64,000 nucleotides of DNA from Anolis carolinensis (GCF_035594765.1 NC_085845.1:127426897-127490896), one strand, 5' to 3'; shown: positions 31,672 through 56,946, counted from the first letter of the stretch. Translations and numbers: made by a program. Notes: generated by a model not told the origin, from the letters alone.

Positions 31672-32819
31672 TGTCAGAGACAGAACGCCAGCAAGTAAAA
31701 CAAAACTCAGTTTATTGAGGTTACAGAACAAAAAATGCCCGTAGGAGACAAAGAACAGGGCAAACACTTGACTTCAGTGTGATAAGTAACAAAAAACAGC
31801 TCAGTTTGAGCTTAAACGGTTCAAAGGGATAAACCGGGTTAAACAGAAGTATAATCCGGATTAAATAAAAGTGCTTACTTCAGCCTGGCAAACAATGCAA
31901 ACAAAAGAGGATCAACAGGAGACAAAATGTAAACAACAGACTGGTGGCAGATTCCTCTCTGCTACTCAGAAACAGCAGGGGAATAAACCAGGCTTGTTTA
32001 TTCCTTCCTGCAGCGAGCGAAAAGAGTGGTCGTAGTCAGGATCCAGTTTAGGGTTCAGCGGCCAACGATATCCAGGTCCAGGCACAGCAGTCAGGGTAAC
32101 GGCAGTCAGCAGGGTCCCAATCCGGTCCAGAGGTCTACAGCCAAGCGAAGTCGTCAAGAAATCCAAAGGTCTCACCGATAGCCAGCAGAAGGGATAATCC
32201 GGAATCGAAGTCAGTCAGTCCAGCGTCAATTCAGTGCGAGTAGGTATTGCCCGTCAAAAAGACGACGGAGGTCAAGGTATCCAGTAACGAATCACACCCG
32301 TCTTCAGGAAGTTCCCCAACAAAAGCCCAAGCGTCCGTCCAGATTACCTTGCCCAACGCAATTAGACATTGGTCCCAAACCCCATTTTATCCCAGTTCAA
32401 GCTCATCATCGCTGTCAGCTGCCATCCCAATTCCAGGTGCCCCAACATCATCATCCTCATCAGAGCTTAAGCACCTTTGACTACGCCCCACAGCATCCCC
32501 AGCTGTGGATCCTGCTCCATCCCTCCAGCCAGTCCATGGGTCTGATCCTGCAACCCGCCAATCACCTCCCATGCTTTCATTGCCTGTTTCCCCAACACCC
32601 AAATCCTCCCTCACACGAGTCCATTCCATGTCATCCTCCTCCAAGCTGGCCATCTCTTCCTCCAAACCCTGAGAAAAACCCTCAAATGAGTCCTCATCTG
32701 TCGGGTCTGTAAACAAATCCCGGAGCCGTTTCCTTTCACGCTCCTCGAAAGAGTCTGACTCTCGAGGAGTCTTATGACCCCTTCTTCTATTACCGGAGCC
32801 CGAAGGCTCAATCATAACA
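31672..32819 (-). mobile_element. Solo LTR of an LTR retrotransposon (Gypsy/BEL-like)
   Basis: TG...CA termini, perfect 5-bp TSD ACACT, and a minus-strand AATAAA about 40 bp from the 3' end. The 3' terminus resembles 56900-56946. Confidence 0.9.
32387..32815 (-). CDS. LTR-encoded basic/acidic protein, 142 aa, function unknown
   Basis: Intact ORF starting 4 nt inside the LTR. Protein-level homology to 55601-56029. Confidence 0.6.
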   Translation of the reverse strand: MIEPSGSGNRRRGHKTPRESDSFEERERKRLRDLFTDPTDEDSFEGFSQGLEEEMASLEEDDMEWTRVREDLGVGETGNESMGGDWRVAGSDPWTGWRDGAGSTAGDAVGRSQRCLSSDEDDDVGAPGIGMAADSDDELELG

Positions 32820-33507
32820 ACACTGCTATATTTATTTTCCCTCCAGAAGACACACTATGGCTTATTTTCAGGGGATGTCTTATTTTTATTACATATGGTA
32901 CAACAATCTACATTATTCAAATATAGTTATCTTCTTCTGGAACATCGTCATAACTCTCCAAACCTGGAATTCCATCCTGAATTTCTTGCGACCCCATTTC
33001 CTTTAGAACCATTGGCCCCAATCTTTCATGTTGAGCAATAGAGCTCTCATTAAATGACAACAACAACACTGTCAGTGATTTTATTACTTGTTGATGGTCA
33101 CCTCCAAGATAGCAGCTGTCATGAGGGGCAGATGAGAAAGGCTGCTTGTCTTCTTTACTGCTCCGTGCCAGTACTCTGCATAGCCATGCCTATCACTGTG
33201 TCTTATTTTCAGGGTATGGCTTATATTGCGCAAATGCTTAGAAATCCTACTACGGTTTATTTTATGGCTATGTTTTATTTTGGGGAAAACAGGGTAGTCT
33301 ATATATTTTATAACTCTTTGTCATGGCCTTTAGTTAGCAGAATAAACATATTGATTGAATGATTGAATTTAAGTCTTAGATCTAGCATGTACATGGTCCA
33401 ACACATATCTACCACAAAGAATACACACCAAATTTATCATTCCATATCGCAAATTCTTAACTGAAAACCTGAACATAGTAAGCTTAAGGCGCTATCCCAT
33501 CTGATTA

Positions 33508-33578
33508 TCTCAAGAACTTTTTCCGATAAAAACCAATCAGTGCCACTGATTGGTTTTTATCGGAAAAAGTTCTTGAGA
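33508..33578. repeat. Perfect 71-bp palindrome (35-bp arms, 1-nt spacer)
   Basis: tctcaagaactttttccgataaaaaccaatcagtg-c-cactgattggtttttatcggaaaaagttcttgaga. Confidence 0.97.
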
Positions 33579-34661
33579 AAAAGTTCTATGCTCTCTCTCA
33601 GTTTGCTACATATCCAGACAATGTTTTAGAACAGTGGTCATACAATACAGGAGATAGTAACTCCAACTTCCTCCTATGCTCCATTGGGGTGTCATGTGAT
33701 TTCAGCTTCACTAAAACTGAGGGTTCAGGGCATGGAGTACCAAGCTTCCAAAGGACCACATAAGAAGCAGAAGGGTTGAAGGCAAAATCAGACGTATTTA
33801 TTTCTTTTGGCCAAAGAGGATGTCAGTGAAGTCTGTGCTCCCAAAGACTGACATCACTCAATGTAAACATGCAGAAATATTTACAGCACCTTAACAGCAG
33901 TTTGAAACAGAGGACTTCTGAGTGTCAATTGGTCCATTTCATGGCAAGCTAGGATCTACAGGCCCGCTGACTGAGATGTATTATCTACTGTTGTTGCTGA
34001 TTGCTCCCTGAGTTTGGAGGGAACTTTAGTAAACAGTCATTGGTTTATTTGAAGGCTTACGTTTGTTTATTGATCCACTCAGGAGAAGTGTGAGAGTGGA
34101 AAGAAATAAGGGGTGGCAAAACATAATGGGTTGAAATGGGTTTTGATGTTCTTGCTATGTGTCGGTATAATGGGTGTCAGTCAGGTAGACAAAAAAGTGT
34201 TAGGGTATTTGCATATACAATGGAGACTTCACAGAAGGTGGTCTGACCCAACACTATAAATGAGGAAACTTCCCAAGATAAAATCAGATAATATTATGAC
34301 AACCCTATGTGTTTCCTGTGACTTTTCCAGAGTATTGTAAATGTTAAATATCTGGCTATCCTGAGGTCCAATGTGTGGAGAAAGGTTAGGCAACATTCCA
34401 GGGAAAAGCTGGTTGAAGGTTAGCTTAGAATTAAGGAAGAGGTCAGTGTGCTCACTGTTTGTCCCAGTGGGGCTGCACTATTTTGGGGGTCCAATTTTAG
34501 ATAGAAGTGGCACAACATGGCATCCCAAAACTGTTGCCCATGCACAATGGCAAGGTATTAAGTATACACTACTGCATTTGAGTCTCATATCTGTAATTTT
34601 GCTTGTTTTCACAGAACATTGAGTAATCTTATCTGTAGAATGCCTAGAAACAACTGAGGTT

Positions 34662-34850
34662 GTATCTCCACTGTAGCATTAATGCAATTTGACACCGCTT
34701 TAACTGCCCGAGGTTTAATCCTATGGTATCCTGGGATTTATATTTTGATGAGACAGCGGGCTAAAGATCTCATAAAACTAGAACTCCCATGATTCCATAG
34801 CATTGAGCCATAGTAGTGATGTCAAACTGCATTAATTCTACAATGTAGAT
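34662..34850. mobile_element. Palindromic MITE (same family as 9262-9455)
   Basis: gtagcattaatgcaatttgacacc ... gatgtcaaactgcattaattctac form an inverted pair. Confidence 0.7.
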
Positions 34851-36044
34851 CCCCCCATGGAAAGAGGTTGTTCCTAAATATCCTTTGTCTTACTTGGAAT
34901 ATACAGAATTCCCAAGACTTAATGCAATGCCTAAATTGATCATGAACCTAGTTAAAAAACAAGTTAATTGCTTTTAGTGTGCTAATGCAGACAAATGATG
35001 CATTCTGGCATAAAGCAGTACTACCATAAAGTATTACCGCTATAAATTCTGCCATAATGCAGTGCTGCTGGAGGCAAACAATCCCTACAGTCTTTTCCTT
35101 ATTTTCATTTCTGCTCATTCCTCCCCCAAATTAGACTTCTGTGCTAGGCCTGAGCTAATTTATAGGTGCCGTAGAACTGACTGCTTTCAGAACTTTTATC
35201 ATTCTCCCTTTTGTTGTCTAAAGCACTGATTCACTCCAAGAAACCCACAATTCAAAGTGCTAAGTAGAAGAGCAGCATAGCACATAGACCCTTGAAACTT
35301 TCCCGTGCAGTGAGCAAAATATCTCTGGAAACCTTGAGAAACCATATTCTCAACACATAAGTAGTTCAGCAAACAATATATCTTGTGTAGTTTTATCTGC
35401 TCTCTTTAATTAAGGGGGTTGTTAAAAGCTCCTCTCTGTACTTGACATTTATGTGGAATTTTGCTGGGTTGAAGCTTCTGTCTCAAGAGCATGATAATTA
35501 ATTAGGGATAACTTTGAAGGACCAATCCTTAGATTTAGGAGTGAAAGTGGAAATGTTTCATAATACTTTTGTGCTATTTTGGGCTTTGTTTGTTTGCTAG
35601 TTTGGTTATGTGTGGCATTTGTTTATCACTTTTCACCTCATCAAACCCCCTGGGGCAAAGCAAACATTTCTGTTCTGTTTTTGAAAATATTTTAATTGCA
35701 TAAGCTTTGTTGAGTTCAAAATTTGTGAAAAAGCAGAATAACAACAGCAACAACAACATTTGAGGCAGGGATACACAACAAACTCACTTTTATAAAGCAT
35801 CCTATAAAGAGAAATGAGGAGAAATGAATGATAATTGAGTCATTCCTTATAAGAATTTAGCAGCACCCATCTATTTAATCATATCCACAATTCACAAAAG
35901 CTGAGAATTAAAAATTCAAATGTGGCAGGAACTGAAAGCAAGAGATTTTTTTGTTGAGAACTAGGAAATACATTCAGAACTTGTTAAAAGTTTGGAGTAA
36001 ATCTCTTTGAATTTAATTGCATTAGTGTTGAATTGTGAAAGCTA

Positions 36045-36240
36045 CTATGGTATAGTGATGTGAGTTTCGAACTAGGAATCCAGGGTTGAAATTCCTGCTC
36101 AACTATGACCCACTAGGTGAACTTGTACAGCTCACACTCTCTTAATCTAATAGGAAGACAATGGCAAACTTCCTCCAAAGAAATCTGGCCAAGAAAACCC
36201 AATGATAAGGTTGCCATAAGTCACAGTCAACTTTTAGACA
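36045..36240 (+). mobile_element. Old tRNA-SINE with RTE/BovB-type tail
   Basis: gggttgaaattcc B-box-like motif and a gccaagaaaaccc..ttgccataagtc tail. Confidence 0.6.
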
Positions 36241-36994
36241 TGAAACATTTGAGTTGTTATCTTTTTGTGTGTGGAAGACACTCCTCTTTTTTAGCAACTA
36301 TAAGGTCGACTCCATGCTGGGAATAGAGGTATCTATTGAATTTGGCCAGTCGTAATGGGAGAGAATTTAGCTTCCATTTGTTTTTTAAAGAATCTATTAC
36401 ATTTTGTACATTTCTTCATATTTAGAGCCAGGACATGAGGTCTTTAAAATGCCACAAGAAAAAAAATCAGATTTCTCCAGCACCAGAAATAAAACTGTAT
36501 CAGCACACATAACACCTTTGTCCTAATCAAAACCTCTATTTTTCACCTGTCCTCCAAAGAAAGTGTTATGAGGGGAAAAGGTATGATTGAATTTCAAGTG
36601 AACTCCTTTGTTTAAACATGGGCAATTTTAGTTTTATTTCTGAAAGCATATTTCACTTTAAAACTAAAATTATCCTTGTTCAAAGTATTGACCCAGATCT
36701 TGTCTTTTTAGCACAGTGGTGATCCTAAAGAAAGATATTCTTAATACTAGGCAGGTAGCAACACTGGAAGCAGCAGCAATGCGGATTTTACAAATTAATC
36801 AAAGACAATTTTAATTCCTGCATTTCTTTATTAAATTTCTTATAGCAAGATTATCTGGCTACCAAAGCACAATTTGAAAACCAGAGAGAATTAAAGCATT
36901 CCTTCCAGACAAAGTGAAAACAATGACAACATCCACAAGCCTGATGAAATAATACAGGTTTGCTGCTTATAGAAAATTTACTAAGGAATGACTT

Positions 36995-37135
36995 GGGCCC
37001 CTTCCACACAGCTGAATAAAATCCCACATTTTCTGCTTTGAAGTGGAATATATGGCAGTGTGGATTGAGATAACCCAGTTCAAAGCAGATATTGTGGGAT
37101 TTTGTGCCTTGACATTCTGAGTTATATGGCTGTGT
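36995..37135. mobile_element. PIF/Harbinger-type MITE, right TIR truncated
   Basis: Reverse-oriented homologue of 28361-28499. Confidence 0.7.
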
Positions 37136-37139
37136 TCTC

Positions 37140-37240
37140 GGTGGCACCCGGGCCTCCCGGTGCAGCCCGGTGGCGCACGGGCCTCCCGGTGCCGCCCGGA
37201 CCTCCCGGTGCCCGGTGGTGCCCAAACCTCCCAGTGCCCA
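37140..37240. repeat. GC/CpG-rich degenerate minisatellite (cctcccggtgc core)
   Basis: Four copies of the core seen directly. Confidence 0.75.
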
Positions 37241-37284
37241 ATGTCTGTGCCCTTGTTCAGAAAATTTCCCTCACTTTCTGTCCC

Positions 37285-37317
<33 letters not shown>
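37285..37317. repeat. (GAT)n microsatellite followed by a minus-strand L2/SINE tail
   Basis: Seen directly. It explains the poly-D and poly-M ORFs. Confidence 0.9.
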
Positions 37318-37435
37318 AATTATTTATTTATATTCTTTTCTATCTCCCCGAGGGGACTCAGGGTGGATTCCAGCATACACAAACACAAAGGCAAACATTC
37401 AATGCTAGAAACAACCATAACACAGATAACATAGA

Positions 37436-37762
37436 TAAGGGTAAAGGCATCGCCTTCTGTCTCTGAGGGGTGGTGCTCATCTCCTGCTCTGTGGGTTGGT
37501 GCTCATCTCAATTTCTAAGCTGAAGGGCCAGCGTTGTCCATAGAAGCCTCCAAGGTCATGTGGCCAGCATGACTGCATGGAGCACCATTACCTTCCCACC
37601 AGAGCAGTACCTATTGGTCTACTCACATTTGCATGTTTTTGAACTGCTAGGTTGGCAAAAGCTTTGGCTAACAACGGGAGCTCATCCCATCCCATAGATT
37701 CAAACCGCCAATCTTCCAGTCAGCACATCTGGCAGCTCAGTGGTTTAACCCATCACAGCCCC
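37436..37762 (-). mobile_element. Sauria SINE
   Basis: Reverse-complement homologue of 6468-6792. Confidence 0.88.
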
Positions 37763-37854
37763 TTTTCCTGAAATATAGAAGCGCATTTGTGTTAACAATT
37801 TATTTCCCTGAGAATTAAAATAGCCACATACACAGGCAAAGTAGTTGCATTGCA

Positions 37855-37990
37855 TACAGGTTGAGCATCCCTTATCTGGAATTCCAAAATACTCCCAAAT
37901 CATCCAAATGGATGGCTAAGATTGTGACATCTCTGCTTTCTGATGGTTCAATGTACACATACTTTGGTTGTGCACACAGTTATTGAAAAA
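37855..37990. mobile_element. Tigger/MER2-like DNA transposon left end
   Basis: TA-CAGGTTGAGCATCCCTTATC terminus. Confidence 0.55.
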
Positions 37991-39392
37991 ATTGGTTTGT
38001 TGAGGAAACAAGGATTGGTGAGAAAGCTTCAGTGGGTGCCCCCTTTCCCCATAATAATTCTTTCAGCAGTGAATTTCCATTCCTAGGCGTAGATTTCTCT
38101 CACTTCCTGTTGTCTCACCCCATTCTTAACTATGATGTTTATGACTCGTCATTACCTGTATTGTACATCTGCAATTATTCCACATGTAGATCTCTGGTCC
38201 CTCCACTATCAGCTGGATCCATTCACGTCATCCAAGAAATCACGTCACATGTGTAGCACACCTTATGACAACATAGATTATATGGCAGTGCAGATAAGGC
38301 CTCACAGTCAAGGCTTTTGTCTCTTTTATTTTTTCATTCTACACACATCCTTATGCTGTGAATTCTGTAAATGTCCAAATATATTAGAAGAGTAATTTTT
38401 CCCCCCATTACTGACTAATTAGTGCAGCTGACTAATATGTAGCACTATTTGTTTTTCACTGCACTTAGACTGCTGCACCCAATTTCCAGTAGTTTTGTGA
38501 GTACTATATGCCTTTTTGCCCTCAACTAGTAGAAAAAAAACAGAACCTGGAGATATCAAAGATTTTTCTTGATATATGAGATCACAAATTCAACTTCTCT
38601 CAGATTTCATTGACACTAGTCAGGAGTAAGGATGTGTGCAGTAATCTGTGTCACATTTAACATCTGTATATGTGCAGTGTCATGTTCTGTGCTTGACAGG
38701 GGTTTTAAGTGAAATGAAATTTTGTTGAAAGAGCTGGAAGAGCCTGTTAAAATGCTCCAAAACCTATTGGAAGTTCATAGCATTTTTTGCTTGCCTTAAT
38801 ACTCACCAGCACCCCACCTCCTTGCAATGATATGCTGTCTCATTGTCAAGTACTCCAAGATCTTCATAATCAGTGGTAAAATCCATTTTCCCCTAAAAAA
38901 ATACAAGATTTTGGTTGTTTCACATTTGTAAGAGACCTGCATTACAGTTTTCAAACTTATATGCAGATGGAAATGTCATTTTCACACTTCCTATAGATTA
39001 GCCTACAGATCACATAAGCAGCTAAATATATTGTAAAATATTTAAGTTTGAAATAAATGAGGGACTGGATATTTCAGATTAAAATGAAATGCCTAGGAGA
39101 ACAAGTATGTGTGAAATTCCTTAACAATCTGCAATTTCATCGTTTCATTAGTGATGCTAATCATAGCTCTTGCATGTATAGTTGTCGTAGTCAATAATGG
39201 ACATTCTTCCAATAACACGTCTCTCCATACTTACCTAAACTAGCTGAGAGGTGACAAAGAACTGCAATTGCTGTAGAATATGTCAGACATAACACTCTAC
39301 TGACACATGTGTATCTATGTGCTTTCAACCCTAGGCAAGGAATGGCAAGAGTTGATTTTGCCATTTTCTTCATTTGAAATATATCCTACAAC

Positions 39393-39452
39393 ACTCCCAT
39401 CCAAGTACTAAAACGGGCTGACTCTGCTTAGTTTCCAAAATTAGACAGAATC
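39393..39452 (-). pseudogene. 5S rRNA-derived fragment (SINE3 head remnant)
   Basis: Reverse complement ggaaactaagcagagtcagccc..ttagtacttggatgggag matches the 5S box A/C region. Confidence 0.7.
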
Positions 39453-40213
39453 TTGTGTTTTTAGGTTATATTTGACATAGCCTTTGAGAAAACAAGACTA
39501 TCCCAATGTCATGATGTCATGATGATGCAGCAATGACGATTGTAGAAAATTTTGTAAAATGTGCAATTAAAACTGCATTAAAAATTAATGAAGAAACAGG
39601 ACCAAGTGGATATAGGACTGGCCACGTGTTGAGCTAAGATGGATTAGGAACAAGGTCTGTGCATATATCAATTTTGAAAAACGGGCTCCGGCTGGTTCAG
39701 ATGGTTTAGCTCTTTCAGCCAGCCAAAATGGTGCAGATTCCACCACCATTTTTTATTGGCCGCAAATGACCACGTGGCTGCTGAAAACAGCTGGCTTTGG
39801 TTTCTTTCAGTTACATGAGGGGAAGGCAGGTTTCCCTGTGAGACTGTGAGCCCTGTTGCCTGCCTGAGCCAATCTGAAGAAGAAAGCCACTCAAGTATTC
39901 TGTGTTCCATCTATCTCAATTCTAATCTTTTTCTTTGGCAATTTCATTTTTGGGCTGTGAATGGGCATTTGGGGGAGGGGGTGCTTGTTTAAATATTGGG
40001 ATGGTTTACTGAAGTGAGAATGATAGCCCTCTCTTGCATTCCCACAGAGAGAATTCAATTCCTCCTCAGGTCTAACTGAATGAGATCAAAGAGATGGATG
40101 CTAGAAACAGGGGTTTCTTAAGCCCGATGCTTTAACCAGGGCTATCTGAAAAAGAAAAGAAAAAAAAGGAAAGTATGCTAAAAGCATGGGTTTCTTAAAC
40201 CTGATGCTTTGGC

Positions 40214-40999
40214 CAGAGCCGGCCCTAGGTATTTTTCAAGTGTAGGCGAACAGAATTTTGGCACCCCCCCAAACCAATCACTGAAAAATAAAAGTGTTGG
40301 ATAAGCGAAAATGTTGGATAATAAGGAAGTATAAAGGAAAAGCCTATAAAACATCAAATTACATTATGATTTTAAAAATTAAGCACCAAAACATCATGTT
40401 TTACAACAAATCAATAGAAAAAGCAGTTCAATACATGGTAATGTTATGTAGGAATTACTATATTTGCAAATTTAGCACTAAACATTGAACAGGGATATAG
40501 GGCAGTGTGGACTTAGATAACCCAAATAGCCCTCAGTATTAAAACAAAAACTCTAAAATCAGGACAATAAATAAATAACAACACTCTGAAAACAGAAGAA
40601 ATCCAGACAGTAAACAATCAGGGACAGCTAACTCCTCCCAAAAAAAGATTCTCCCAGGCAAGAAGAAGCCAGGCCTTGAAGCCACAGGGCCATTAAATGC
40701 TAATCAAGGTGATTAATTACAACATTCACACCTGCTTCAAAGAAAAGTTCTTTCTCCCACCCTGGACCTTCTACAGATATATAAACCCTACATACCTAGC
40801 TTCCAAGTTTCTACAGACCTCACAATCTCTGAAGGCCCCAAAGGTGGGCTTGCGTGGTGTGAAGGTGGGTCTGCGCTGGCCGGAAGGCCCGAAAGAGAAG
40901 GAGGTGGAGAGTGGTGCCCTCCTCCCAGGACGATGGTGCCCCCGGGACAATGGCGCCACAGGCAAATGCCTATTTCACCTTATGGTTGGACCGCCTCTG
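40214..40999 (+). mobile_element. Composite non-autonomous hAT (CAGAGCC family, long form) with Penelope cargo
   Basis: Inverted termini and a perfect 8-bp TSD GCTTTGGC. Internal 40580-40830 is Penelope-like. Confidence 0.9.
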
Positions 41000-41070
41000 G
41001 CTTTGGCCCAGGGCTATCTGAAGGAGATTAAAGGAGAGGATGCCAGAAGCAGGGAGTTCTTAAGACAGAT

Positions 41071-41672
41071 AATAATAATAAAACTTTATTTATACCCCAC
41101 CACCATCTCCCTGCGGGGACTCGGGGTGGCTTACATGGGACAGAGGCCCAAACAACATAGAACAAAACATAGGCAACATAATACAAATCACACTATAAAA
41201 AGATAAAACAGTAATACAATATATCAATTAAAACAAAAATACAGGATAAAAAATTGCATTTAAAACACATAAATGGTAAAATCGTAATAAAAACGGGATA
41301 GATTATTAAAAACCCTCTGGGGCGGATTAATTAATGACTGTATCCCCAAAGGCCTGCCGAAACATCCAAGTCTTCAGTTGTTTCCTGAAGGAAGGTAGAG
41401 AGGTAACCAACCTAATCTCCCTGGGGAGGGAGTTCCAGAGTCGGGGAGCCATGGCCGAGAAGGCCCTCTCTCTCGTCCCCATCAAACACAGTTGTGAGGA
41501 GGGTGGAAGTGAGAGAAGGGCCTCCCCGGAAGATCTCAGTGATCGGGTGGGTTCATAGGGGACGACGCGGTCACGAAGATAGGCAGGTCCTGAACCGTTT
41601 AGAGCTTTATAGGTAATAACCTGCACCTTAAATTGGGCCCGGAATATAATCGGCAGCCAGTGGAGCTGCTTG
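41071..41672 (-). mobile_element. L2-clade LINE 3' fragment
   Basis: KQLHWLP..KALNGSGPAYL..RAFSAMAPRLWNSLP..FRKQLKTWMF, with 3'UTR and tail. Confidence 0.9.
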
Positions 41673-43328: not shown

Positions 43329-43617
43329 CAGGCATGTAACCAGGGGGGGGGGGGGGGCTTGAGGGGCTTCAGCCACCCCCCCCCCCCCGAAATTCTCAGG
43401 GTGGTCCGTGAAAAGGCCTTACATTTATTATTTAAACTGCTATGTTTATTCATATCATAATCTGATCACCATGCTCAATATATCCCTTATGCATGGGGGT
43501 ATTGGGATAACGATACCAAAGGTTTGCTAGGGTAGATCGTCTCTCACCCAGACTCAGCCTCCCCCCCACAACCAAAATCCCAGTCCCTCCCAAACCAAAA
43601 TCCTGGCTACGGGCCTG
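43329..43617. mobile_element. Non-autonomous hAT transposon
   Basis: Termini CAGGCATGTAACCAGG / CCTGGCTACGGGCCTG and a perfect 8-bp TSD GCAGGTGG. Confidence 0.88.
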
Positions 43618-46750: not shown

Positions 46751-47331
46751 GCTAGCAACTATTAATTTCTAAACATCTGGAGTTAAAGAATTGGACTTCC
46801 AAACCAAGTACTGTATACTGCAGCAGAACTAGATTAAAATATACTAGTGTCCATCACTTGTTGACTGGAGTAAAATTGTGTGGGGTGCCAGAGCAACATT
46901 GAAGAACTGTGGAAAGGAGGAATTTCCCCCTTCTTTCCTTGCCTCCCTTCTCTGGTCGCCCCATCACTCATTACTCCAGGTGATGAGTAATGGACACAAG
47001 TCACATTGCACCTGCTGGCTGCTGTGATAATGAGAACAGGAGAGGGAAAGTGAGTGTCATCTCACGTCTTTGGGTTGCCTGAGCCTGGGAAATATGGAAT
47101 GGCTGTATAAACAATTCCATCTGGTTCCATCTTGGAACTGGTCCAACTATTTACACAGGCCTGAAGTCAGTTTGCTCTGGATTCTTGGGAGAATGCAGAG
47201 CAAAATGGTTAACTTGGTTCAAGGCCTCATTGACCTACATCAGCTCCATGAGTCACGCAGCCACTACAGAACTGATCACATCCCAATTTGGCATAATAGT
47301 CAGTGCATGCCTGAGAAACATTACTCTAAAC

Positions 47332-47467
47332 CAGTGGTACTCAACTGGTGGGTCCCCAGGTATTTTGGCCTACAACTCCCAGAAATCCCAGCCGGTTTAC
47401 CAGCAGTTAGGATTTCTGTGTGTTGATAGGCCAAAACATTTGAGGACCCACAGATTGAGATCCATTG
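47332..47467. mobile_element. hAT MITE, hairpin type
   Basis: CAGTGGTACTCAA / TTGAGATCCATTG ends and TSD CTCTAAAC / CTCTAAAT. Confidence 0.85.
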
Positions 47468-47915
47468 CTCTAAATTGTTAGGCTCATGTGGTTCCATATT
47501 ATTAGTGAGTGAAATGGTCACAATTAGTGTTAGAGAAGGGAGACAACAATATCTTGTGTACTTGAGATAGAGTTATACAAGCTGCCTGACATCCTCCCAT
47601 ATACAATTAAACATTGTAGAATTTAGATCTGAATAAACATCAACAGGAATCAACTGTCCAGGAAAATACAGGTGACTATGTGCCAACTGTCTACTGTGTG
47701 GAAGTCCTACAACTTGTCCCTAAATTCTTACCACACACAGGACAATATCCTGTTAGTGACTGTGGTTGCTCACGTCTTTCCTCATCACAAGTGTATATAT
47801 TCTTGTCTACTCTTTGCAACGACCAAAGCTCTTTCTCATGAGATCTACAGTTTTGATGTGATGGTCCCTCTGGATAGCTGTTCTATAATTGATGGAGAAC
47901 ACTGTATAATTATCC

Positions 47916-48203
47916 CAGGGCCGGTCCAACAATTAGGCAAATTAAGCGGTCGCTTCGGGAGCAAAACATACAGGGGCGCAGTCAAGACTGCTTTTTCTGT
48001 TGATTTCTTGTAAAACATGATGTTTTGGTGCTTAATTTGTAAAATCTTAATGTAATTTGATGTTTAATAGGCTTTTCCTTAATCCCTCCTTATTATCCAA
48101 TATTTTCGCTTATCCAACGCTTTTATTTTTCAGTTATTGGTTTGGGGGGGGGGGCACCAAAATTCTGTTCGCCTACACTTGAAAAATACCTAGGTCCAGC
48201 TCT
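47916..48203 (-). mobile_element. Non-autonomous hAT (CAGAGCC family, short form)
   Basis: Near-identical to 22329-22627. No clear TSD. Confidence 0.85.
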
Positions 48204-49179
48204 TATATATGTACCATAGTCCAACACAGACCAATGACATCTGTCAAGCATTGGCCAGCATGAAGGAAGTGGGAAAACCTTCTTCCTGATCACATGAGCA
48301 TCCTGTTCTGACATAGGTGGAGGTACCTGGTTATGTGGGAACTCTGTTGATATCACAGTGGGGCACCCATGCAACCAATGACCCAGATTCATAATTAATG
48401 CCTAGGATCCAAGACTGCTCTCTGGCATATTTTCACCAGGCTAGACTACCTGGTACAGATGAACCCCAAGAATAGGTTTAGGCTACAGAACTGTGTCATT
48501 CCACATGCAAGAGACTGACTGGAGAGGACATGAGAGATAAGACAGAAGCACAGAGGGAAGGAGGGAGCAGGAAGAAAGAATGAGTTATAAATATAGAATA
48601 TCCAAAGTTTGCCTAAAGACCTTCGATATTTAATTGTCAGTCCAACTGTCATAAGGACAGAAAACAAATTAGAAGGGTGGGGGAAAATGCTAGATTTACA
48701 TCCAGTTCTAGACTGTGATCCCATTCAAAATTCAGCAGTGGTTTCAGTGCCAGGAACTCTTTCAGGCACACCTGACAGGATGAAAAGCTGTCAGAAATTG
48801 ATTCTCGCATGTTGCTGAGGACAGAACAAAAAGTAATTGGCTTTAAGATGCAGCAGAGGAAAATATAAGTTAATTTTGTTGGAAATGGATCAAGCTGGTA
48901 AGAGGGGATATGTTATCACCTCTACTGGAAATATTCAAGGCTAGGCTACTGTGTGAAGGACTCTCATGGGGCAATGAAATCAATTTTGTCACAGTGCGGA
49001 GGAATGCAATTGCACATCCTTTCTAGTCCTAATGATTCATCTGAGACATGTTGCATGCTATATAGAAAATGGCATGATATACATAGTTTAGCAGAATTGC
49101 TAGTAATTGTGTGTGAGAGAGAGTGGGGGAGGGAGAGAGATTGTGTGTATTGGTTTTCTGACTTGAGAGGTTGTGCAGG

Positions 49180-49390
49180 TAATGTTGTTTGGTTTAGTGC
49201 TGGACTATGAATCTGGAAATCGTTCGAATCTCCACCATAGAAACCCACTGGTCAACCTTGATCAAGTCGCAATCTTTCAGCTTAGGATGAAAACAATGAT
49301 AAACCTCCTATGACCAAATCTTTCCAAGAAAACCTTGTGATATGTTTTAAGGTTTTCATAAGAGGGAAACAACAGAAAGGCCAACAACAA
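49180..49390 (+). mobile_element. Old tRNA-SINE with RTE/BovB-type tail
   Basis: gttcgaatc B-box and ccaagaaaacc tail. Confidence 0.55.
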
Positions 49391-49557
49391 CAGTGAAAAC
49401 ATATTTTCCATTGGTAACTATTGTCAAAACTGGTTGAATGGGCATTTTTCAAAAATAGAAGAAGCCAACTAAAAATGTGGCTAAACCACCCTTTGAGAAA
49501 CAATGGCTTGCATTCTGTTACAAGTTATGAAGTTGTAAGCCAGACGTGCAACCTCAC

Positions 49558-49928
49558 AACTGGGTTGCTGTGAGTTTTCTGGGCTATATAGACATGTTCA
49601 AGAATCATTTCTCCTGACATTTCACCCACATCTATGGCAGGCATCCTCAGAGGTTGTGAGGTCTGTTGGGAACTAAGCAAGTGGGATTTATATATCTGTG
49701 GAATGCTCAGGGTGGAAGAAAGAACTCTTGTCTGCCAAACGCAAGTGTGACTGTTGCAATTTGCCAACTTGATTAGTATTGAATAGCCTGGCAATTTCAA
49801 GGCCTGGCTGCTTGCTGCCTGGGGGAATCCTTTGTTGGAAACACCAAAGAACAACACTCAGAAGACAGGAGAATTCCAGACAAGAAACAATCAGTGCCAG
49901 TTAACACCTCCCAACAAAGGATTCCCCC
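49558..49928 (-). mobile_element. Penelope-like element fragment with an inverted segment
   Basis: Minus-strand 3' end joined to a plus-strand piece. ggggaatcctttgttgg / ccaacaaaggattcccc form an inverted pair. Confidence 0.75.
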
Positions 49929-51128
49929 ATAATTTTGTCACCCCATGCTCTTGGGCTATATATCCTTTACCATGGTCCAACTCACCATTTTCTTTTGTTT
50001 AGATGCCCCCAAATACCTTTTAGAGGATGTGAGTACATTTTGCCATGTTTAGTTGATTTCGCATTTTAATCAACAGGAACTGGGTGGAAGTGACTTTCTG
50101 TTCACATCTTGTTTTTGAAAACACTGTCCTGGGCCTAAATTAACCTGAGGGCAAAAATTGTATCATATGGGGGCAAAAAATTGCAAACCTCCTACAGAAA
50201 AATGAGTTGTGCCTCCAGGAGGGTTCTGAGGGACCACAAAAATGTCCCTGGAGTGCATGCAACCCTTTTATGCAACCTTTGTTTAGGCATTATAATTGTT
50301 GGGCAAGCGAGATTTTGTACATTCATGTTACTGACAAATTTATCTTTTGCAGTTTCTGCCCTAATGCATTGAAAGACCCATAAGATTTAAAACAATGGTC
50401 ATTATTAAGGATATTATTTTTGTAGAAGGAAAATAGCATGAAAGTACACACTGTGTCTAATGATAACACAATCAATTAGTGCTTAACTCTTCTGGCTATA
50501 TTTAGAAGATTTTTTTAATTTTAAAAAGGACTGGTTATGTTACTGGAATTGTGGTTATTTTTATTGATGCTATGCAATATTCTCATTTTCTGTTTTGGAA
50601 CCCTGCTGCTGTTAACATTAAATGTTCTCTCAATGCATCTTAGAAACACTTGGACTTCTGGAAAATGGAATTAATCCTATTTCTTCATTTGAGCAAATTA
50701 GCCTGTGTGCTTGGAAACACTGGATTATACAAAAATCAGAGCTTGAATGTCATTTTTGGAGCACAGGCTCCAGAATCCTCACAACTCTTCTCTTTGGCTA
50801 TTCTGACTAGATGTTGCTCAAGCTGCCATTTCCAAAAAAAGTAACGTTTCTTGACTCTGATAGGAATGAGACGTCTATAATGCTGTCTATCATTCTGCCA
50901 TAATATGTAAACCACCTTCTAACACTTTTTCAATGATATGATAATGGAACCAGTATTTGACAACACAAATAATGCTATTCAGAGATGATTGTTTGATTAA
51001 TTGATTTATTTAAAATATTTGTTGGCTATTAGATTTTTAAAAAACCCTCTCATGGTGACCTATTATTATTATATTATATTTATTTATATCCCACTTTATC
51101 TCCCCAAAAGGGACTCAAACTGGCTTAT

Positions 51129-51129
51129 C

Positions 51130-51188
<59 letters not shown>
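51129..51188. repeat. (ATCT)n microsatellite between two minus-strand L2/SINE tails
   Basis: Seen directly. Confidence 0.95.
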
Positions 51189-51489
51189 CACATTATAAAT
51201 TGCAAAAATCCCCAAGATTATTTATTTATTTATTTATTGCATTTATATATCGCTTTTCTCACCCTTGGGGGACTCAAAGCGGTTCATACCAAATAAATGG
51301 CAAAATTCAATGCCTCATAAATAATAAAAACAGTACATTACACATCTAGAATCGTGGCCTATCATTATAAATTAGACCATTAAAACCATAAACATCTGAC
51401 ATGAACATAAAACAATTAAAAATTGCACTGATCCCGAAGTTGTCATCCATAATTTAAAATTAATATATGTAGACATACAATATTGTTCA

Positions 51490-51795
51490 GTGGGTCAAAC
51501 TGCTGAACTTGCTTATTGAAAGGTTGGCAGTTCAAATCTGGGGACCTGGGGGAGTCCTCGCTGTTAGCCGCAGCTTCTGTCAACCTAGCGGTTCGAAAAC
51601 ATGCAAATGTGAGTACATCAATAGGTACCGCTCCGGTGGGAAGGTATTTGCACTCCATGCAGTCATGTCAGCCACATGATCTTGAAGGCATTTACGGACA
51701 ATGCTGGCTCTTCAGCTTAGAAATGGAGATGAGCACCACTTCCCAGAGTTGGACACAACTAGACTTCATGTAAAGGGGAAATCTTTACCATTACT
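51490..51795 (+). mobile_element. Sauria SINE, 5'-clipped
   Basis: Homologous to 6468-6792. Confidence 0.88.
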
Positions 51796-51800
51796 TTAAC

Positions 51801-52541
51801 CAGTGTTTCTCAACCTTCCTAATGCCACAACCCCTTAAGACAGCTCCTCATGTTGTGGTGACCCCCAACCATAACATTATTTTTGTTGTTACTTCATAAC
51901 TAATTTTCTACTGTTATGAATCTTATGTAAATATCTGATATGCAGGATGCATTTTCATTCACTGGACCAAATTTGGAACAAATACCCGATACGCCCAAAT
52001 TTGAATAGTGGTGGGGTGTGGGGGTGGGGATTGATTTTGTCATTTGGGAGTTGTAGTCACTGGGATTTATAGTTCACCTACAATCAAAGAGCATTTGGAA
52101 CTCCACCAACAATGGAATCAAATCAAACTTAGCACACAGAACTCCCATGCCCAACAGGAAATACTGGAAGGGTTTGGTGGGCATTGACTTTGAGTTTGGG
52201 AGTTGTAGTTCACCTACATCCAGAGAGCACTGTGGACTCAAACAGTAATGGATCTGGACCAAGCTTGGCACAAATACTCAATATGCCCAAATTTGAACAT
52301 ATTTGGTGGAGTTTGGAGAAAATAGATGACATTTGGGAGTTGTAATTGCCGGGATTTATAGTTCACCTACAATCAAAGAGTCCCTTGAACACCACTAACG
52401 ATAGAATTGGGCCAAACTTCCCACACAGAACTCCCATGACCAACAGAAAATACTGGTCTTTGGCAACCCCACTAAGTCCCCTGCACAATCCACGCCCCCC
52501 CCCCCCCCCAAGGGTTCTGACTCCCAGGTTGAGAAACACTG
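51801..52541 (+). mobile_element. SPIN/URR1-like non-autonomous hAT with internal tandem modules
   Basis: TIR CAGTGTTTCTCAACCT at both ends. The left ~140 bp resemble the URR1/SPIN MITE (ccttcctaatgc..ctcatgttgtggtgacccccaaccataa). TSD CTTTA(G)AC. Confidence 0.85.
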
Positions 52542-52579
52542 CTTTAGACATACAATAACATCAACATAAAAACATCTAG

Positions 52580-52795
52580 GTGTTCTTGTAGGTGTCTTCA
52601 AGTCACCGACCAACTTATGGTGACCCCATAATTTCCTAGAGTTTTCTTAGGTAAAGAATACTTAGAATACTTTCTTAGGTAAAGAATACTTCCTCTGAAA
52701 AATGGTCGACAGCACCTGATATTCACTAGTATCCCTCAATTGAGTACTAACCACAGTTTACTCTGCTTAGCTTCCGAGAACAGATGGGGTCTGGA
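52580..52795 (-). mobile_element. 5S rRNA-derived SINE (SINE3) with RTE/BovB-type tail
   Basis: Reverse complement tctcggaagctaagcagag..ggttagtact..gaatatcaggtgctg is 5S-like, then a ctaagaaaac..gggtcaccataagt tail. Confidence 0.7.
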
Positions 52796-54218
52796 CCATG
52801 AGAGTTTTTAGGCCTTTCATTATAACTTAAAACCAACAGTCTAATAAGAATCTTTTAATGCAAAATAGATCCCTTTAGATGTTTTAGACCAACTGCCAAG
52901 ACTTCCTAGGTATGGCTTCTGAGAGCAAAAGAATCCCAATTTAAACAAGTAAAAAAAAAAAAACCTTCCCGTTCTTAGAAAATGACAAGAAACAAATTGG
53001 GTAGGACTCTTTTAAAGCTCTGAAGTGATATTGATATTTCTGAGATTTGTGAAATTATTACTCAAAAGATCAAAAAATCAAAAAAAGGACCAAAGCAAGA
53101 TAGTATGTCACAATGGCCATTATGAGAATCTGTTAAGAGAATAAAGAGTAAGGAGAGGAAAGAAGGCTAATAGAATGAACATTAACAGATTTATGGAAAA
53201 CCTTTTTTTGTGTGCCTTCATAATAATTATATCAGCCATTCATGACAACGTGTTGTCTGGAGAGAGAAGTCATCAGAAACATCTTGAGGGGGTAAAAATT
53301 GCACCGCTTTCAATCACAGTGCTAATCATAAAGTAATTATCATCGTTGAGATTGGCATAAGAATGATCATTAACTATGTACTAAACTGCAATCATCTGTC
53401 TCAAAAATCTAATAAAGAATCTGTGTGATCAATATTCAGCACCATTAGCCAGAATGACAGATCTGTTTTCCTTATTTTTAGTTTCAACAGCAAGCAGGCC
53501 TCCTTTACGTACAGTGGATTTCTTTTTTCCTTTACTTTTTTTCCAAACGGGAGGGGAGTACTTACTCTTTAATTAACCTGAACTTGGCAGGGAACAAGAA
53601 AGAAGAAAGAATCCAGAAAATATTTTTTTTTTCTGAAGCAGATACCTATTTTTCTTCACAAGGCAAAGTTTATTGTTACCTCGATCTTGTTCAGCTAAAG
53701 CTCAGTTTTAAACGTAATCTATGTGTTGTGTGTGATTAAACATTGTGAGTTCGAACTTGCTTAGCAACAATGTAAAAGCTAGGTTGCTGGCATACTTATG
53801 CGTTGCTAGCTAAACCAATCTTGCATACCCTTAGGCCATAAATCCCTGATTTATGTAAAGACTACTGCTGTTCTAGCTTGTCTATGATGCCAAGTGCAAA
53901 GCATCCCCACCTGTTTTTCCTTTTAATGTCTCATTGAGATGCATCTGAATTCTTGACTTACTTGAATTTAGTTTGTGGCACCTGCATAAATTCCCCGAGG
54001 TATAATCCACTATATGTCACTCTCGTTAAACCAAACATTTTAGTATCTGTTTCCAGTCAAATCCAATGGTGCTATTTACAAAGGTTTGTCAGGTTTATGT
54101 GCACATGTGGTAGGCAGAAGTATAGCTACAGGTAAATTTTACCTCCTATTAAGTTCCCTTTCATCCTCTGATTTCTCGTATTACAGACAGAAACCCTGAA
54201 AATGATGTTTATGTCATG

Positions 54219-54456
54219 ACCGGGCTGTGGCGCAGGCTGTTGAGCAACCAGCTGCAGCCAGCTGCAATGAATCACTCTGACCAGGAGGTCATGAGTTTGA
54301 GGCCAGCTCGGAGCCCCGTGTTTGTCTTGTCTTTGTTCTATGTTAAGGCATTGAATGTTTGTCTTATATGTGTAATATGATCCGCCCTGAGTCCCCTTCG
54401 GGGTGAGAAGGGCAGAATATAAATACTGTAAATAAATAAATACATAAATAAATAAA
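54219..54456 (+). mobile_element. Anolis SINE2-like element, short form
   Basis: Near-identical to 23046-23277. Confidence 0.85.
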
Positions 54457-54974
54457 TGACTCCTACCAAAGTGTCATAACTAGGTAAAGTGGGAGCAAAA
54501 TTAGCACACATCCCCATTAAGAAAAAAAATTCCCACCCAAATTGAATTTTTCTTTAGCACAAGATTTCTAGCATTGCAGATTTTGGACTAGAATTCTTAT
54601 ATTTGTTGAATTCACATTCCCTTGGCAACTTTTCGCCTTTGCTTTGGATGCCTAAACTGCATTTTTAAATGTTCAACTGAACATTTTATATTACAAAAAT
54701 GCTAGGAATTTTAAATTTCATTGGGGTACAGTTTCTATTTGAGAGACTAGTGCACTCATCTTCCTGTCTTGTAACTCTATCCTCCTGCATAAGGAGAAAA
54801 TGTATTATCCCAGAACCTACTTCCTTGACTTGGTCTCCTATCATACTGTGCCTCAGAATGTCACTTCATTTACCAGAGCCTTGGATCTCAATAGAACATC
54901 TCAGTGCCTTAAAAAATTGCAATTCTTTTGACAAAACTGGGTGGACTTTATAGGCATAGGATACGTATTGAGAG

Positions 54975-55160
54975 TCAGTGTAGTGTAGTGGTTTGAGTGT
55001 TAATGCAACACCAGGGTTGGAATTCCTGCTTAGCCATGGGTGAGCTTAGCATGTCCTCATCTTTAGAGGAGAACAATGACAGATTTCTTCTGAACAAATT
55101 CTACTGAGAGAGCACTGTAATAGGTTCTTCTTAGGATTGTCAGAAATTACTTGAAAACAC
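54975..55160 (+). mobile_element. Old tRNA-SINE with RTE/BovB-type tail
   Basis: gtgtagtggttt head. Homologous to 36045-36240. Confidence 0.5.
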
Positions 55161-55599
55161 CAACAGCAGCAGCAGCAACAAAAACAGGATCATCTTTGAA
55201 GGAGTGGACAAATACCTGTAGAGATTTTTAAATAAGTACCAAGGTCATGGGTGCCCTTTCAAATAAGTATGCATAGGATTTCAGATTTAAAGTCCCCTTC
55301 AGAGGACCTAAAGCAAATCAAACTTCAGATGTAAGAATCACATTTGAATGCAGCTCCACGGAAACATTCTATGAATATTTCAAGCACAGAACTACCCCAA
55401 GGAGCTTGTCCTTAACACACCAAGATCTGATATACCTGACTTCTGTTTATTAATAGTTCTAAATATTTCCTTAGCACTTTCAAATGTTCACTGGTCTAAG
55501 GCTATTTAGCAAGTCCAGAACATATTATTAAGTTCTCCTTTAGAATGAATTTGATGAGGCATCATTCATGAAAACACAGTTTAGTTACACATATGCAAG

Positions 55600-56946
55600 T
55601 GTTGTGACTGCGCCTTCGGGGATTATGGTTGATGGTTATGGGATTCGAAAAGGAAGAAAAAACCCTCGTGATGAGGGTTCACTGGAGGAGTTGCGCAGGA
55701 AGTGACTTAGAGAGCTATATGGGGGATCTTCTGAGGAAGATTCAGATGGGGAGTTTGGGGAAATGGATGCTGAGGAACAGGTGGTGGCTGGGGAAGTGGG
55801 CACTGAATGGGCACAGCCACCGGAGATGTCTGGGGATTTGGGGCCTATGGATACTGCTGAACCTGGGGTTTCTGCAGGAGCTGATCCCACTTGGGATGCT
55901 TGGAGAAGGGAGGATGGTTCTTTAAGTGTTCATGGGGCTAAGTGTGGGCAGGATGATTGGGACTCCGACGAATTGCTAGGTACTCCGGATCCACGAGCTC
56001 TAGCTGTGTGGAGTTCGGACTCTGAGTAGATTTGGGACACCTGGTGTTTGGGTGTGAGTGTTTGGTCACCCAGGAGGAAGGGGAATGTTTGGCCACTGCA
56101 CTTTGCGTGTGGCAAGGTGTTGCTGAGGCGCCATTGGGATCTCTGTGTTTCCGTGAAGACTGGACTTGGACTGTGATTCGGATGTAAGTTATCTGGGACT
56201 GCTCTGCAGCAGAGGGATGGAACTGTGTGGGTTTCCCTGGACTGCATTCTGATTACTATTTCTAGCTGCTGATACCATCTGGCTTGGCTCTCGCTGTGTC
56301 TTATCGTGGACCTGGTTTGGATGACTGCACCCTCTTCGGACTTTGGATTGAATTTGACCTGGCTTCTGTCTACGCCCTCTGACTGACGACTACTCCCGGC
56401 TTCTGACTACTGGTTTGCCTTTCGGAATTTGCTGCTGCCTCCTGACCTGACCTTGGATTCTCCTGACAACGGCTATTCATCATCCCTTTGAAGCTCTCGG
56501 CTTTATCTGCACCGTGGAAGCAGTTTACTGCTCTTCTAGTTTGTTTGTTTTCAAGCCAGTTTTCTGTTTTTCTTTTGGGAACTGTCCCTTTAAATCCACA
56601 GAGCCGGCTGTCTGTTTTCAGAAACGGTTTGGAACCAAAAGAGGCTTTTGCACTTTCAGTTATACTCTGCAGCTTCTGGAAGGTTTCAAGCCTTCGTTTA
56701 TTTTGCATATTTTCTAGCAGTCAACTCAATTTGTTCTCCAAAGCTGAATTGAAGCGTCTTTTAGTTTTTATTGAATGCCAGCGTGGGAAAATAGCGTGGC
56801 TTGTTTTTGAGTTATTTTTGTCCAAACTACTCTTGAAACACTGATAAGTGAAGTGTTTCAAGGATACCTTCTGTGTTTATGTTATTTCTGGCTTATCTTT
56901 TGAATAAACTCTGTTTTGTTTGTTAACTGGCATCTGACTCTTGACA
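55600..56946 (+). mobile_element. Solo LTR of an LTR retrotransposon (Gypsy/BEL-like)
   Basis: TG...CA termini, perfect 5-bp TSD GCAAG, and AATAAA about 40 bp from the 3' end. Confidence 0.9.
55601..56029 (+). pseudogene. LTR-encoded basic/acidic ORF with one premature stop at 55703-55705
   Basis: The frame is open from the LTR edge: VVTAPSGIMVDGYGIRKGRKNPRDEGSLEELRRK*LRELYGGSSEEDS... The TGA aligns with Arg in the other LTR, consistent with CGA>TGA decay. Confidence 0.6.

What the first reader, a model, noticed from the sequence alone, without database searches (positions are those of the whole stretch)
32387..56029. Conserved protein-coding ORF inside two divergent solo LTRs (32387-32815 and 55601-56029)
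Seen in sequence: two solo LTRs with different lengths and little obvious DNA similarity outside their termini both carry an ORF that is open from the LTR's first bases. The translations align along their whole length: VMIEPSG/VVTAPSG, RRGHKTPRESDSFEERERKRLRDLF/RKGRKNPRDEGSLEELRRK*LRELY, DEDS/EEDS, MEW/TEW, AGSDPWTGWR/AGADPTWDAWR, SSDE/DSDE, DSDDE/SSDSE. All three Trp of these blocks are kept and the substitutions are largely conservative. The single stop fits CpG decay. In the first LTR the stop codon overlaps a TATA-like GATAAAA, which places the ORF in U3. Established knowledge: U3-encoded proteins are known in retroviruses (HIV Nef, MMTV Sag, foamy virus Bel ORFs), whereas retrotransposon LTRs are normally non-coding. 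Inference: this squamate LTR-retrotransposon lineage encodes a selected accessory protein or Pol extension in U3, with an NLS-like basic patch and an acidic/aromatic activation-domain-like body. Every solo LTR would leave a copy of it in the genome.
Basis: partly seen in the sequence, partly recalled or inferred. Interest (0 to 1): 0.85.

Follow-up and report, generated by a model that had tools for sequence, protein, structure and literature searches.

The report
Integrase tail mimicking LEDGF-binding motif
The two reading frames are the tail end of a lizard retrotransposon's integrase gene, which runs on into the element's terminal repeat and in three of four related families carries a short motif like the one host proteins use to grip the chromatin tether LEDGF, so it likely helps steer where the element inserts.

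Summary
Both solo LTRs belong to sister families (A, B) of self-priming Tf1/sushi-type Ty3/Gypsy elements. In full-length copies, pol (RT-RNaseH-integrase-SH3, no chromodomain) reads through the polypurine tract into the 3' U3 in this frame, so each ORF is the last ~140 residues of integrase. The tail is under purifying selection (dN/dS 0.17-0.30; 1 in-frame indel against 74 indels downstream). Its stop lies just before the inferred transcription start, so a solo LTR cannot express it from its own promoter.

Pol running into U3 is known from plant CRM elements. New here: family A carries helix + 8-residue acidic linker + FxGF, the layout of LEDGF/HRP2-binding TIM/IBM motifs. Related families D2 and D repeat it two and three times; a separate Podarcis lineage has two similar motifs. 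A profile built from the element motifs finds the LEDGF-JPO2 complex as top PDB hit (E=0.005). Family B lacks FxGF. Binding and targeting are inferred, not shown; crude insertion-site proxies show no difference between families.

Verdict: new variant of a known kind; Pol tail about 97%, LEDGF-type tethering about 45%.

The parts
31672..32819 (-). Solo LTR, family A (Tf1/sushi-type Ty3/Gypsy), TG...CA, 5-bp TSD at 32820-32824 and 31667-31671
   Evidence: 1668 first-look candidates in the genome
32387..32818 (-). U3-encoded C-terminal tail of Pol/integrase, family A (143 codons + stop)
   Evidence: same frame as Pol in 29 of 30 integrase loci; dN/dS 0.17-0.30
32762..32788 (-). Basic patch (residues 11-19), possible NLS, untested
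   Evidence: basic in A, B and D
32711..32749 (-). Only predicted helix of the tail (residues 24-36), ending in L-x-x-[LI]-F
   Evidence: AlphaFold2 model, mean pLDDT 56, helix 24-36
32675..32725 (-). TIM/IBM-like motif: helix end, 8-residue acidic Ser/Thr linker, FxGF (FxGF itself 32675-32686)
   Evidence: motif definition in PMC9987994
32385..32391 (-). TATA-like box overlapping the stop codon
   Evidence: 31-32 nt before the inferred start in A and in B siblings
32349..32359 (-). Inferred first 11 nt of the transcript (start of R); complementary to the family's PBS, as in Tf1 self-priming
   Evidence: PMC7175516
31711..31716 (-). AATAAA near the LTR 3' end
55600..56946 (+). Solo LTR, family B (sister of A), TG...CA, 5-bp TSD at 55595-55599 and 56947-56951
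   Evidence: 2189 first-look candidates
55601..56029 (+). U3-encoded C-terminal tail of Pol/integrase, family B; broken in this copy by a stop at 55703-55705
   Evidence: same frame as Pol in 14 of 14 B integrase ends
55706..55747 (+). Helix-like end plus acidic Ser-rich run matching A's motif position, without FxGF
56105..56115 (+). Inferred first 11 nt of the transcript; its complement predicted the family PBS
   Evidence: 54 exact genome matches to LTR end + predicted PBS, 0 in the control pattern
56903..56908 (+). AATAAA near the LTR 3' end

Best explanation
Both ORFs are the selected C-terminal tail of the integrase of chromodomain-less Tf1/sushi-type Gypsy retrotransposons, encoded in the 3' U3, and in family A this tail carries a helix-acidic-FxGF motif that likely binds the integrase-binding (TND) domain of LEDGF or HRP2 and so would likely tether the integration complex to chromatin in place of the lost chromodomain. 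Shown: fusion to Pol, absence of a chromodomain, purifying selection, motif layout and repetition. Inferred: translation, binding, phosphorylation of the linker, and any effect on insertion sites. Family B keeps the helix and acidic run but not FxGF, so it may bind another TND protein or none. The Pol-tail part alone is about 0.97; the confidence given is for the whole mechanism.
For: Pol fusion: L061 has 99.3% identical LTRs and a Pol frame running into the 3' LTR; in frame in 29 of 30 A integrase loci, 14 of 14 B integrase ends, 29 of 30 pattern-sampled loci, and 5 of 7 D/D2 junctions. Pfam finds RT, RNaseH, integrase and SH3 but no Chromo in A and B Pol, and finds Chromo in family C and Podarcis P0027. 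Selection: dN/dS 0.17-0.30 in 5 subfamily pairs, upper bootstrap bounds at most 0.49, Fisher p 4e-6 to 4e-11; the other sense frames give 0.9-2.4; 1 gap event (6 nt) in the ORF against 74 after it, 9 of them multiples of 3, in 16 LTRs. Motif: a TIM is a helix + 8-16 acidic residues + optional FxGF, and FxGF marks LEDGF/HRP2 partners (PMC9987994 passages). The tail is predicted disordered except helix 24-36. D carries three copies and D2 two; across 14 chosen repeats only F, G, F are invariant. That profile's top hit among 177,635 PDB sequences is the JPO2 motif in 6EMO (LEDGF IBD-JPO2), E=0.0052, with the same 8-residue spacing. The whole D tail, with no window chosen, also lists 6EMO (second hit, E=0.4). 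A separate Podarcis lineage has an LxGF and an FxGF motif after its chromodomain in 10 of 10 members that reach the region (12 in the cluster). FxGF appears in 1.2% of shuffles of tail A. The host has PSIP1/HDGFL2-like IBD exons.
Against: Family B, which spread to many copies, has no FxGF, so the motif is not needed for this lineage to transpose. I chose the 28-residue window after recalling the motif; the A-only window gives E=0.48, no better than unrelated hits of a control window (E=0.34-2), and the whole A/B tail profile and single tail do not hit 6EMO. Within A, the whole 24-residue stretch is nearly invariant in 113 copies, so FxGF does not stand out there. Insertion proxies do not separate motif-bearing from motif-less families: contigs above C6 hold 12 of 150 A, 9 of 150 B, 10 of 150 D hits (hand count), and flank GC is 0.40, 0.39, 0.39 (n=29 each). 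The Podarcis lineage has both chromodomain and motifs, so the motif is not strictly a replacement. The Podarcis first motif has L instead of F, and a strict regex missed both (0 of 97 tails).
Confidence: 0.45

Rival explanations
1. The tail is part of integrase and does bind a TND-domain host protein, but not to choose sites: it serves nuclear retention, protection from degradation, stimulation of strand transfer, or binds another TND factor (TFIIS, IWS1, ELOA, MED26), which would also cover family B.
For: B keeps helix plus acidic run without FxGF, and many TIMs lack FxGF (PMC9987994). No insertion-site difference in the crude proxies.
Against: A, D and D2 keep FxGF, which the same review ties to LEDGF/HRP2; LEDGF and BET tethering by integrases is known to set insertion sites (PMC4176367 passages).
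Confidence: 0.25
2. The tail is a selected but non-TIM integrase extension (basic nuclear-import signal plus acidic spacer, possibly cut off by the element protease); the FxGF likeness is chance or serves an unknown partner.
For: Weak E-values for A alone; selection covers the whole tail, including Trp motifs far from FxGF (dN/dS 0.25-0.60 in the C-terminal half); basic patch present in A, B and D.
Against: Two- and three-fold repetition of helix+8+FxGF in D2 and D with a variable x, the E=0.0052 match to JPO2 with identical spacing, and similar motifs in a separate Podarcis lineage.
Confidence: 0.22
3. The ORF is made as a separate accessory protein (Nef/Sag-like or transactivator) from a spliced or internal transcript, or from solo LTRs by read-through.
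For: A has an ATG at codon 2; gene predictions join the tail to unrelated upstream frames (P0003, P0005, P0008, P0130).
Against: No shared start codon in B or D; constant in-frame fusion to Pol; the inferred start site lies after the stop.
Confidence: 0.06
4. The frame stays open passively, through purine-rich composition or DNA-level constraint on the U3 promoter.
For: dS is lower in U3 (0.38-0.60) than in the integrase core (0.62-1.41) for the same A pairs, which hints at DNA constraint or recombination.
Against: Third-position excess (e.g. 28/20/57 changes by codon position), dN/dS below 0.5 only in this frame and its exact antisense, and frame-keeping indels.
Confidence: 0.02

Closest known systems
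Tf1/sushi group of Ty3/Gypsy chromoviruses (Tf1, Sushi-ichi)
   Same: gag then PR-RT-RH-IN-SH3 order, 5-bp TSD, PBS complementary to 11 nt of the LTR (self-priming; PMC7175516 passage).
   Different: Families A, B, D, D2 have no chromodomain, and pol continues 140-200 codons into the 3' U3.
Plant CRM group A centromeric retrotransposons (CR motif)
   Same: Chromodomain replaced by a putative targeting motif encoded in the 3' LTR by pol read-through (PMC3059260, PMC3605345 passages).
   Different: Vertebrate lineage, self-priming, dispersed rather than centromeric; the tail is acidic with helix+FxGF. No sequence comparison with CR motifs was run.
TND-interacting motifs / LEDGF IBD-binding motifs (JPO2, IWS1, KMT2A, MED1)
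   Same: Disordered context, helix + 8-residue acidic Ser/Thr linker + FxGF; profile match to JPO2 in PDB 6EMO.
   Different: Encoded by a retrotransposon integrase tail, one to three copies; binding not tested.
Lentiviral integrase-LEDGF and MLV integrase-BET tethering
   Same: Integrase uses a host chromatin reader; MLV does so with a disordered C-terminal tail peptide (PMC4176367 passages).
   Different: HIV-1 integrase binds LEDGF with a pre-arranged folded site rather than an unstructured IBM (PMC10854676 passage); here a linear host-type motif would be used.
U3-encoded retroviral accessory proteins (Nef, Sag, Bel; recalled, from the finding)
   Same: Coding sequence overlaps U3.
   Different: Those are separate proteins; this frame is fused to Pol and has no shared start codon.

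Membership tests
Ty3/Gypsy LTR retrotransposon | gag-pol between LTRs with PR-RT-RH-IN order, no env | tested here: met
   L061, L170, L137 ORFs and Pfam; no further ORF of 100 codons between pol and the 3' LTR, as pol runs into it
Ty3/Gypsy LTR retrotransposon | TG...CA LTRs with short TSD | tested here: met
   5-bp TSDs at both window copies and siblings
Tf1/sushi group | Self-priming PBS complementary to the first 11 nt of the transcript | tested here: met
   11-nt complement in 4 of 4 elements checked; predicted B PBS found 54 times, control 0. The start site itself was not mapped.
Chromovirus (strict, by domain) | Chromodomain at the integrase C-terminus | tested here: not met
   No PF00385 in A or B Pol at E<=0.01; present in family C and P0027
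Chromovirus lineage (by descent) | RT-RH-IN groups with chromodomain-bearing elements | tested here: met
   A+B (100) group with chromodomain-bearing Podarcis P0015 (97; 98/96) among chromodomain Pols; midpoint root, no named Sushi reference
Plant CRM group A | pol extends into the 3' LTR | tested here: met
Plant CRM group A | CR motif, tRNA-Met priming, centromeric concentration | tested here: not met
   Self-priming PBS and copies spread along all large contigs; CR motif itself not compared
TIM/IBM (LEDGF-type) | Short helix ending in hydrophobic residues within a disordered region | tested here: met
   Predicted helix 24-36, rest without structure; low-confidence model
TIM/IBM (LEDGF-type) | Acidic linker of 8-16 residues with Ser/Thr | tested here: met
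   8 residues in A, D, D2
TIM/IBM (LEDGF-type) | FxGF | tested here: inconclusive
   Met in A (F, G, F in 112, 113, 112 of 113 copies; one of them changes x), D and D2; not met in B
TIM/IBM (LEDGF-type) | Binding to the LEDGF/HRP2 TND, enhanced by CK2 phosphorylation | not testable with these tools
   Needs a binding assay
Retroviral U3 accessory gene | Separate ORF with its own start and transcript | tested here: not met
   Fused to Pol, no shared start codon; a spliced RNA could not be excluded

The most novel reading that the evidence does not exclude
Lizard Tf1/sushi-type retrotransposons have replaced their chromodomain with a U3-encoded integrase tail that copies the host's own LEDGF/HRP2-binding linear motif, in zero to three copies depending on the family, and a second lizard lineage gained such motifs separately: a retrotransposon route to the same tether that lentiviruses use.
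Probability: 0.4. Interest if true: 0.85.

Novelty: new variant of a known kind. Interest (0 to 1): 0.66.

Why it matters
LEDGF tethering is known for lentiviral integrases, which use a folded surface. A retrotransposon integrase using a host-type FxGF motif would show a second, independent way to reach the same chromatin reader, and would give a concrete, testable partner for a U3-encoded targeting tail, which plant CR motifs lacked in the 2011 survey I read. The natural series (0, 1, 2, 3 motifs, with or without chromodomain) in one genome with thousands of insertions allows a direct test of whether motif number shifts insertion sites. It also explains a class of spurious lizard gene models that end in this LTR frame.

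Tried and rejected
Complex prediction: no intact LEDGF IBD was obtainable. A lizard processed pseudogene (L224) has a stop inside the IBD, so its two natural pieces were folded with tail residues 22-58; verdict 'no answer', score 0.01, no evidence either way. A metagenome scan for a spliced IBD gave two intron-containing loci only.
Expression: no RNA holder listed; contigs of 4 runs guessed as RNA cover the element but cannot show starts, strand or level, and none of the joints listed joins the internal region to the start of U3.
Finding B elements: a guessed PPT pattern gave one false hit; the top 150 tail copies had no frame above 304 aa; the longer-protein search found none; 10 long-frame loci were fetched and showed only LTR matches. 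The PBS pattern worked.
Finding D elements: the PBS pattern hit the LTR's own antisense strand, not a PBS, in the 30 loci read; the PPT pattern worked.
Homologues outside Anolis: a tail profile over 1.84 billion representatives gave 5 hits, of which three are these LTR frames (two named Anolis, one unnamed Logan record) and two look unrelated. ESM Atlas blank. Pfam has nothing for the tail. PDB search with the single tail, the A/B profile and the family C tail gave nothing relevant.
Tree: one search dropped 11 of 24 database proteins and L155 through a pattern miss; one search kept 26 of 29. D was not placed.
Earlier findings: nothing.
Primary papers on IBM/TIM (Tesina 2015, Sharma 2018, Cermakova 2021) were not held.
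Full report
Observation. The window lies on contig C5 of a 1.85-Gb genome; proteins 98% identical to ORF A are named Anolis carolinensis Gypsy integrase-like proteins. LTR A (31672-32819, minus) and LTR B (55600-56946, plus) are solo TG...CA LTRs with 5-bp target duplications. Each has a frame from base 2: A is open for 143 codons, B has one stop that 5 of 30 near-identical copies share. The DNA aligns only in 10-36 nt patches, but the proteins align with score 144, reached by 0 of 2000 shuffles of either kind. Both are young, abundant families (1668 and 2189 first-look candidates; best 40 hits at 98-100%).

What the ORFs are. Two A hits 5.3 kb apart are the LTRs of a full element (L061, 99.3% identical), with gag, then pol running through the purine tract into the 3' LTR in the frame of ORF A. 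The frame enters the LTR in 29 of 30 top A integrase loci and reaches the natural end in 20. L061's PBS is complementary to 11 nt lying 31-32 nt after the TATA-like box, the Tf1 self-priming arrangement (PMC7175516, passages). Applying that rule to B predicted a PBS found 54 times (control 0). Of 20 such loci fetched, 14 showed a B integrase end; all 14 enter the LTR in frame and 9 reach the natural end. Pfam shows RT, RNaseH, integrase and SH3 but no chromodomain in A and B. A and B are sister families (support 100) nested among chromodomain-bearing Pols (midpoint root). So each ORF is the C-terminal tail of Pol/integrase. Since the inferred start site lies after the stop, a solo LTR cannot transcribe it from its own promoter (inference; start not mapped).

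Selection. Between natural copies of A subfamilies the tail has dN/dS 0.21-0.29 in 6 pairs, against 0.02-0.04 for the integrase core; the N-terminal half is lower (0.12-0.26) than the C-terminal half (0.25-0.60). A second set of 5 pairs gives 0.17-0.30 with bootstrap upper bounds at most 0.49, while the other sense frames give 0.9-2.4. Among 16 LTRs there is 1 gap event in the ORF (6 nt) and 74 after it, 9 of them multiples of three. A versus B is saturated at silent sites. The pairs share ancestry and are not independent.

The motif. Tail A reads helix (predicted 24-36, the only structure in a model of mean pLDDT 56), 8 acidic Ser/Thr-rich residues, then FxGF. I recalled this as the LEDGF-binding motif and checked it: a review defines TIMs as an obligate helix, an 8-16 residue acidic linker and an optional FxGF that all known LEDGF and HRP2 partners carry (PMC9987994, passages). 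In 113 distinct A tails the helix F, F, G, F are kept in 111, 112, 113 and 112, but neighbours are kept about as well. The stronger signal comes from other families. A tail profile found P0130 (E=7e-4, named A. carolinensis), an older family D whose U3 frame has three repeats; anchored on the helix alone, F/G/F occur in 38/36/38 of 40, 33/33/33 of 36 and 43/41/43 of 43 repeats read from 50 loci, with x being E, L/M or V. Family D2 has two repeats. D and D2 are also chromodomain-less Pol tails: 5 of 7 junction loci show SH3 in frame with the tail. An alignment of 14 repeats I picked from A and D has only F, G, F invariant, and its profile ranks the JPO2 motif of PDB 6EMO (LEDGF IBD-JPO2) first among 177,635 sequences, E=0.0052, same spacing. 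Controls temper this: A alone gives 6EMO first at E=0.48, the whole D tail second at E=0.4, a neighbouring control window gives unrelated hits at E=0.34-2, and the whole A/B tail gives no 6EMO hit. Among 97 other Pol C-termini scanned, only Podarcis muralis P0027 has such motifs next to integrase (two; one LxGF, one FxGF), after an intact chromodomain and, judging from the protein alone, before the purine tract; 10 of its 12 cluster members reach this region and all 10 have both. P0027 is not sister to A/B, so the motif is either old or gained twice. Family B keeps the helix-like end and acidic run but has no FxGF.

Mechanism. Shown: a selected, mostly disordered tail fused to integrase, encoded in U3, in a lineage without chromodomain. 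Inferred: Pol is made from the genomic RNA, whose 3' end holds U3; the tail stays on integrase; the motif binds the TND of LEDGF or HRP2 (IBD exons are in this genome), which read H3K36me2/3, and so biases integration to transcribed chromatin, as LEDGF does for lentiviruses and as BET proteins do through the disordered MLV integrase tail (PMC4176367, passages). Against: B thrives without FxGF; Podarcis has motif and chromodomain together; and crude proxies show no shift (contigs above C6: 12, 9, 10 of 150 hits for A, B, D by hand count; flank GC 0.40, 0.39, 0.39). These proxies are weak, as selection after insertion blurs them and no gene annotation was available.

Comparison and novelty. Pol read-through into the 3' LTR, with a putative targeting motif replacing the chromodomain, is described for plant CRM group A and some Beta chromoviruses (PMC3059260, PMC3605345, passages), so the architecture is a known kind. 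I found no paper describing it, or an FxGF/IBM motif, for a vertebrate Gypsy integrase in nine searches of open PMC and bioRxiv text (listings and abstract starts only, apart from the papers cited by passage; PMC3601003 passages on Sushi LTRs mention no ORF). Subscription papers, Repbase and Dfam could not be searched, and UniRef already holds these Pol sequences with the tail attached but unannotated. HIV-1 integrase binds LEDGF through a pre-arranged site rather than an unstructured IBM (PMC10854676, passage), so a host-type linear mimic on an integrase would be new.

Verdict. Observation confirmed; interpretation partly supported. New variant of a known kind. Pol tail under selection about 0.97; binding to some TND protein about 0.7; LEDGF/HRP2-type tethering that shapes insertion about 0.45. 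Interest 0.66.

Noticed in passing
L141:4538-8323; L204-L223; L063:5764-6114 and 8169-8480: Family C, far more abundant (4705 genome matches to its shared PPT-LTR junction pattern, mostly C among the first 100 listed), keeps its chromodomain and also reads 85-97 codons into U3, with a different tail: an acidic DEEEN[LM]GF block and a C-terminal RRS[AL]RIAA block. The latter recalls nucleosome acidic-patch binders such as HMGN (from memory, untested; PDB profile search blank). Podarcis P0015 ends in a similar block.
   Followed up: partly
L137 vs L136 and L149: Two B subfamilies differ at silent sites by 0.33-0.54 in pol but only 0.03-0.04 in the U3 tail, which points to recombination or a sweep of one U3 across subfamilies.
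   Followed up: no
window 56075-56095: The window's LTR B lacks the 11-nt stretch with the TATA-like AATAAAA box found in 28 of 30 copies, so its promoter is probably crippled.
   Followed up: partly
L224:1474-1900 (G000:C2:143718346): Processed pseudogene of PSIP1/LEDGF with a stop inside the IBD; the intron-containing gene is at C2:235.4 Mb and an HDGFL2-like exon at C9:37.6 Mb.
   Followed up: partly
G000:C4:80501151-80521652; C1:26753597-26764579: Tandem arrays of A-type elements spaced about 5.2 kb apart.
   Followed up: no
L063, L134, L141, L150, L151: These families often insert into each other (C into B, A next to B).
   Followed up: no
P0003, P0005, P0008, P0130: Database gene models that join LINE-like or other frames to this LTR tail; probably prediction artefacts caused by the long open frame in solo LTRs.
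   Followed up: no
window 2614-3420, 7449-8108, 15386-16012, 18324-19577: Long frames that look like non-LTR retrotransposon (RT-like) fragments by eye; no other piece of families A-D was found in the window.
   Followed up: no
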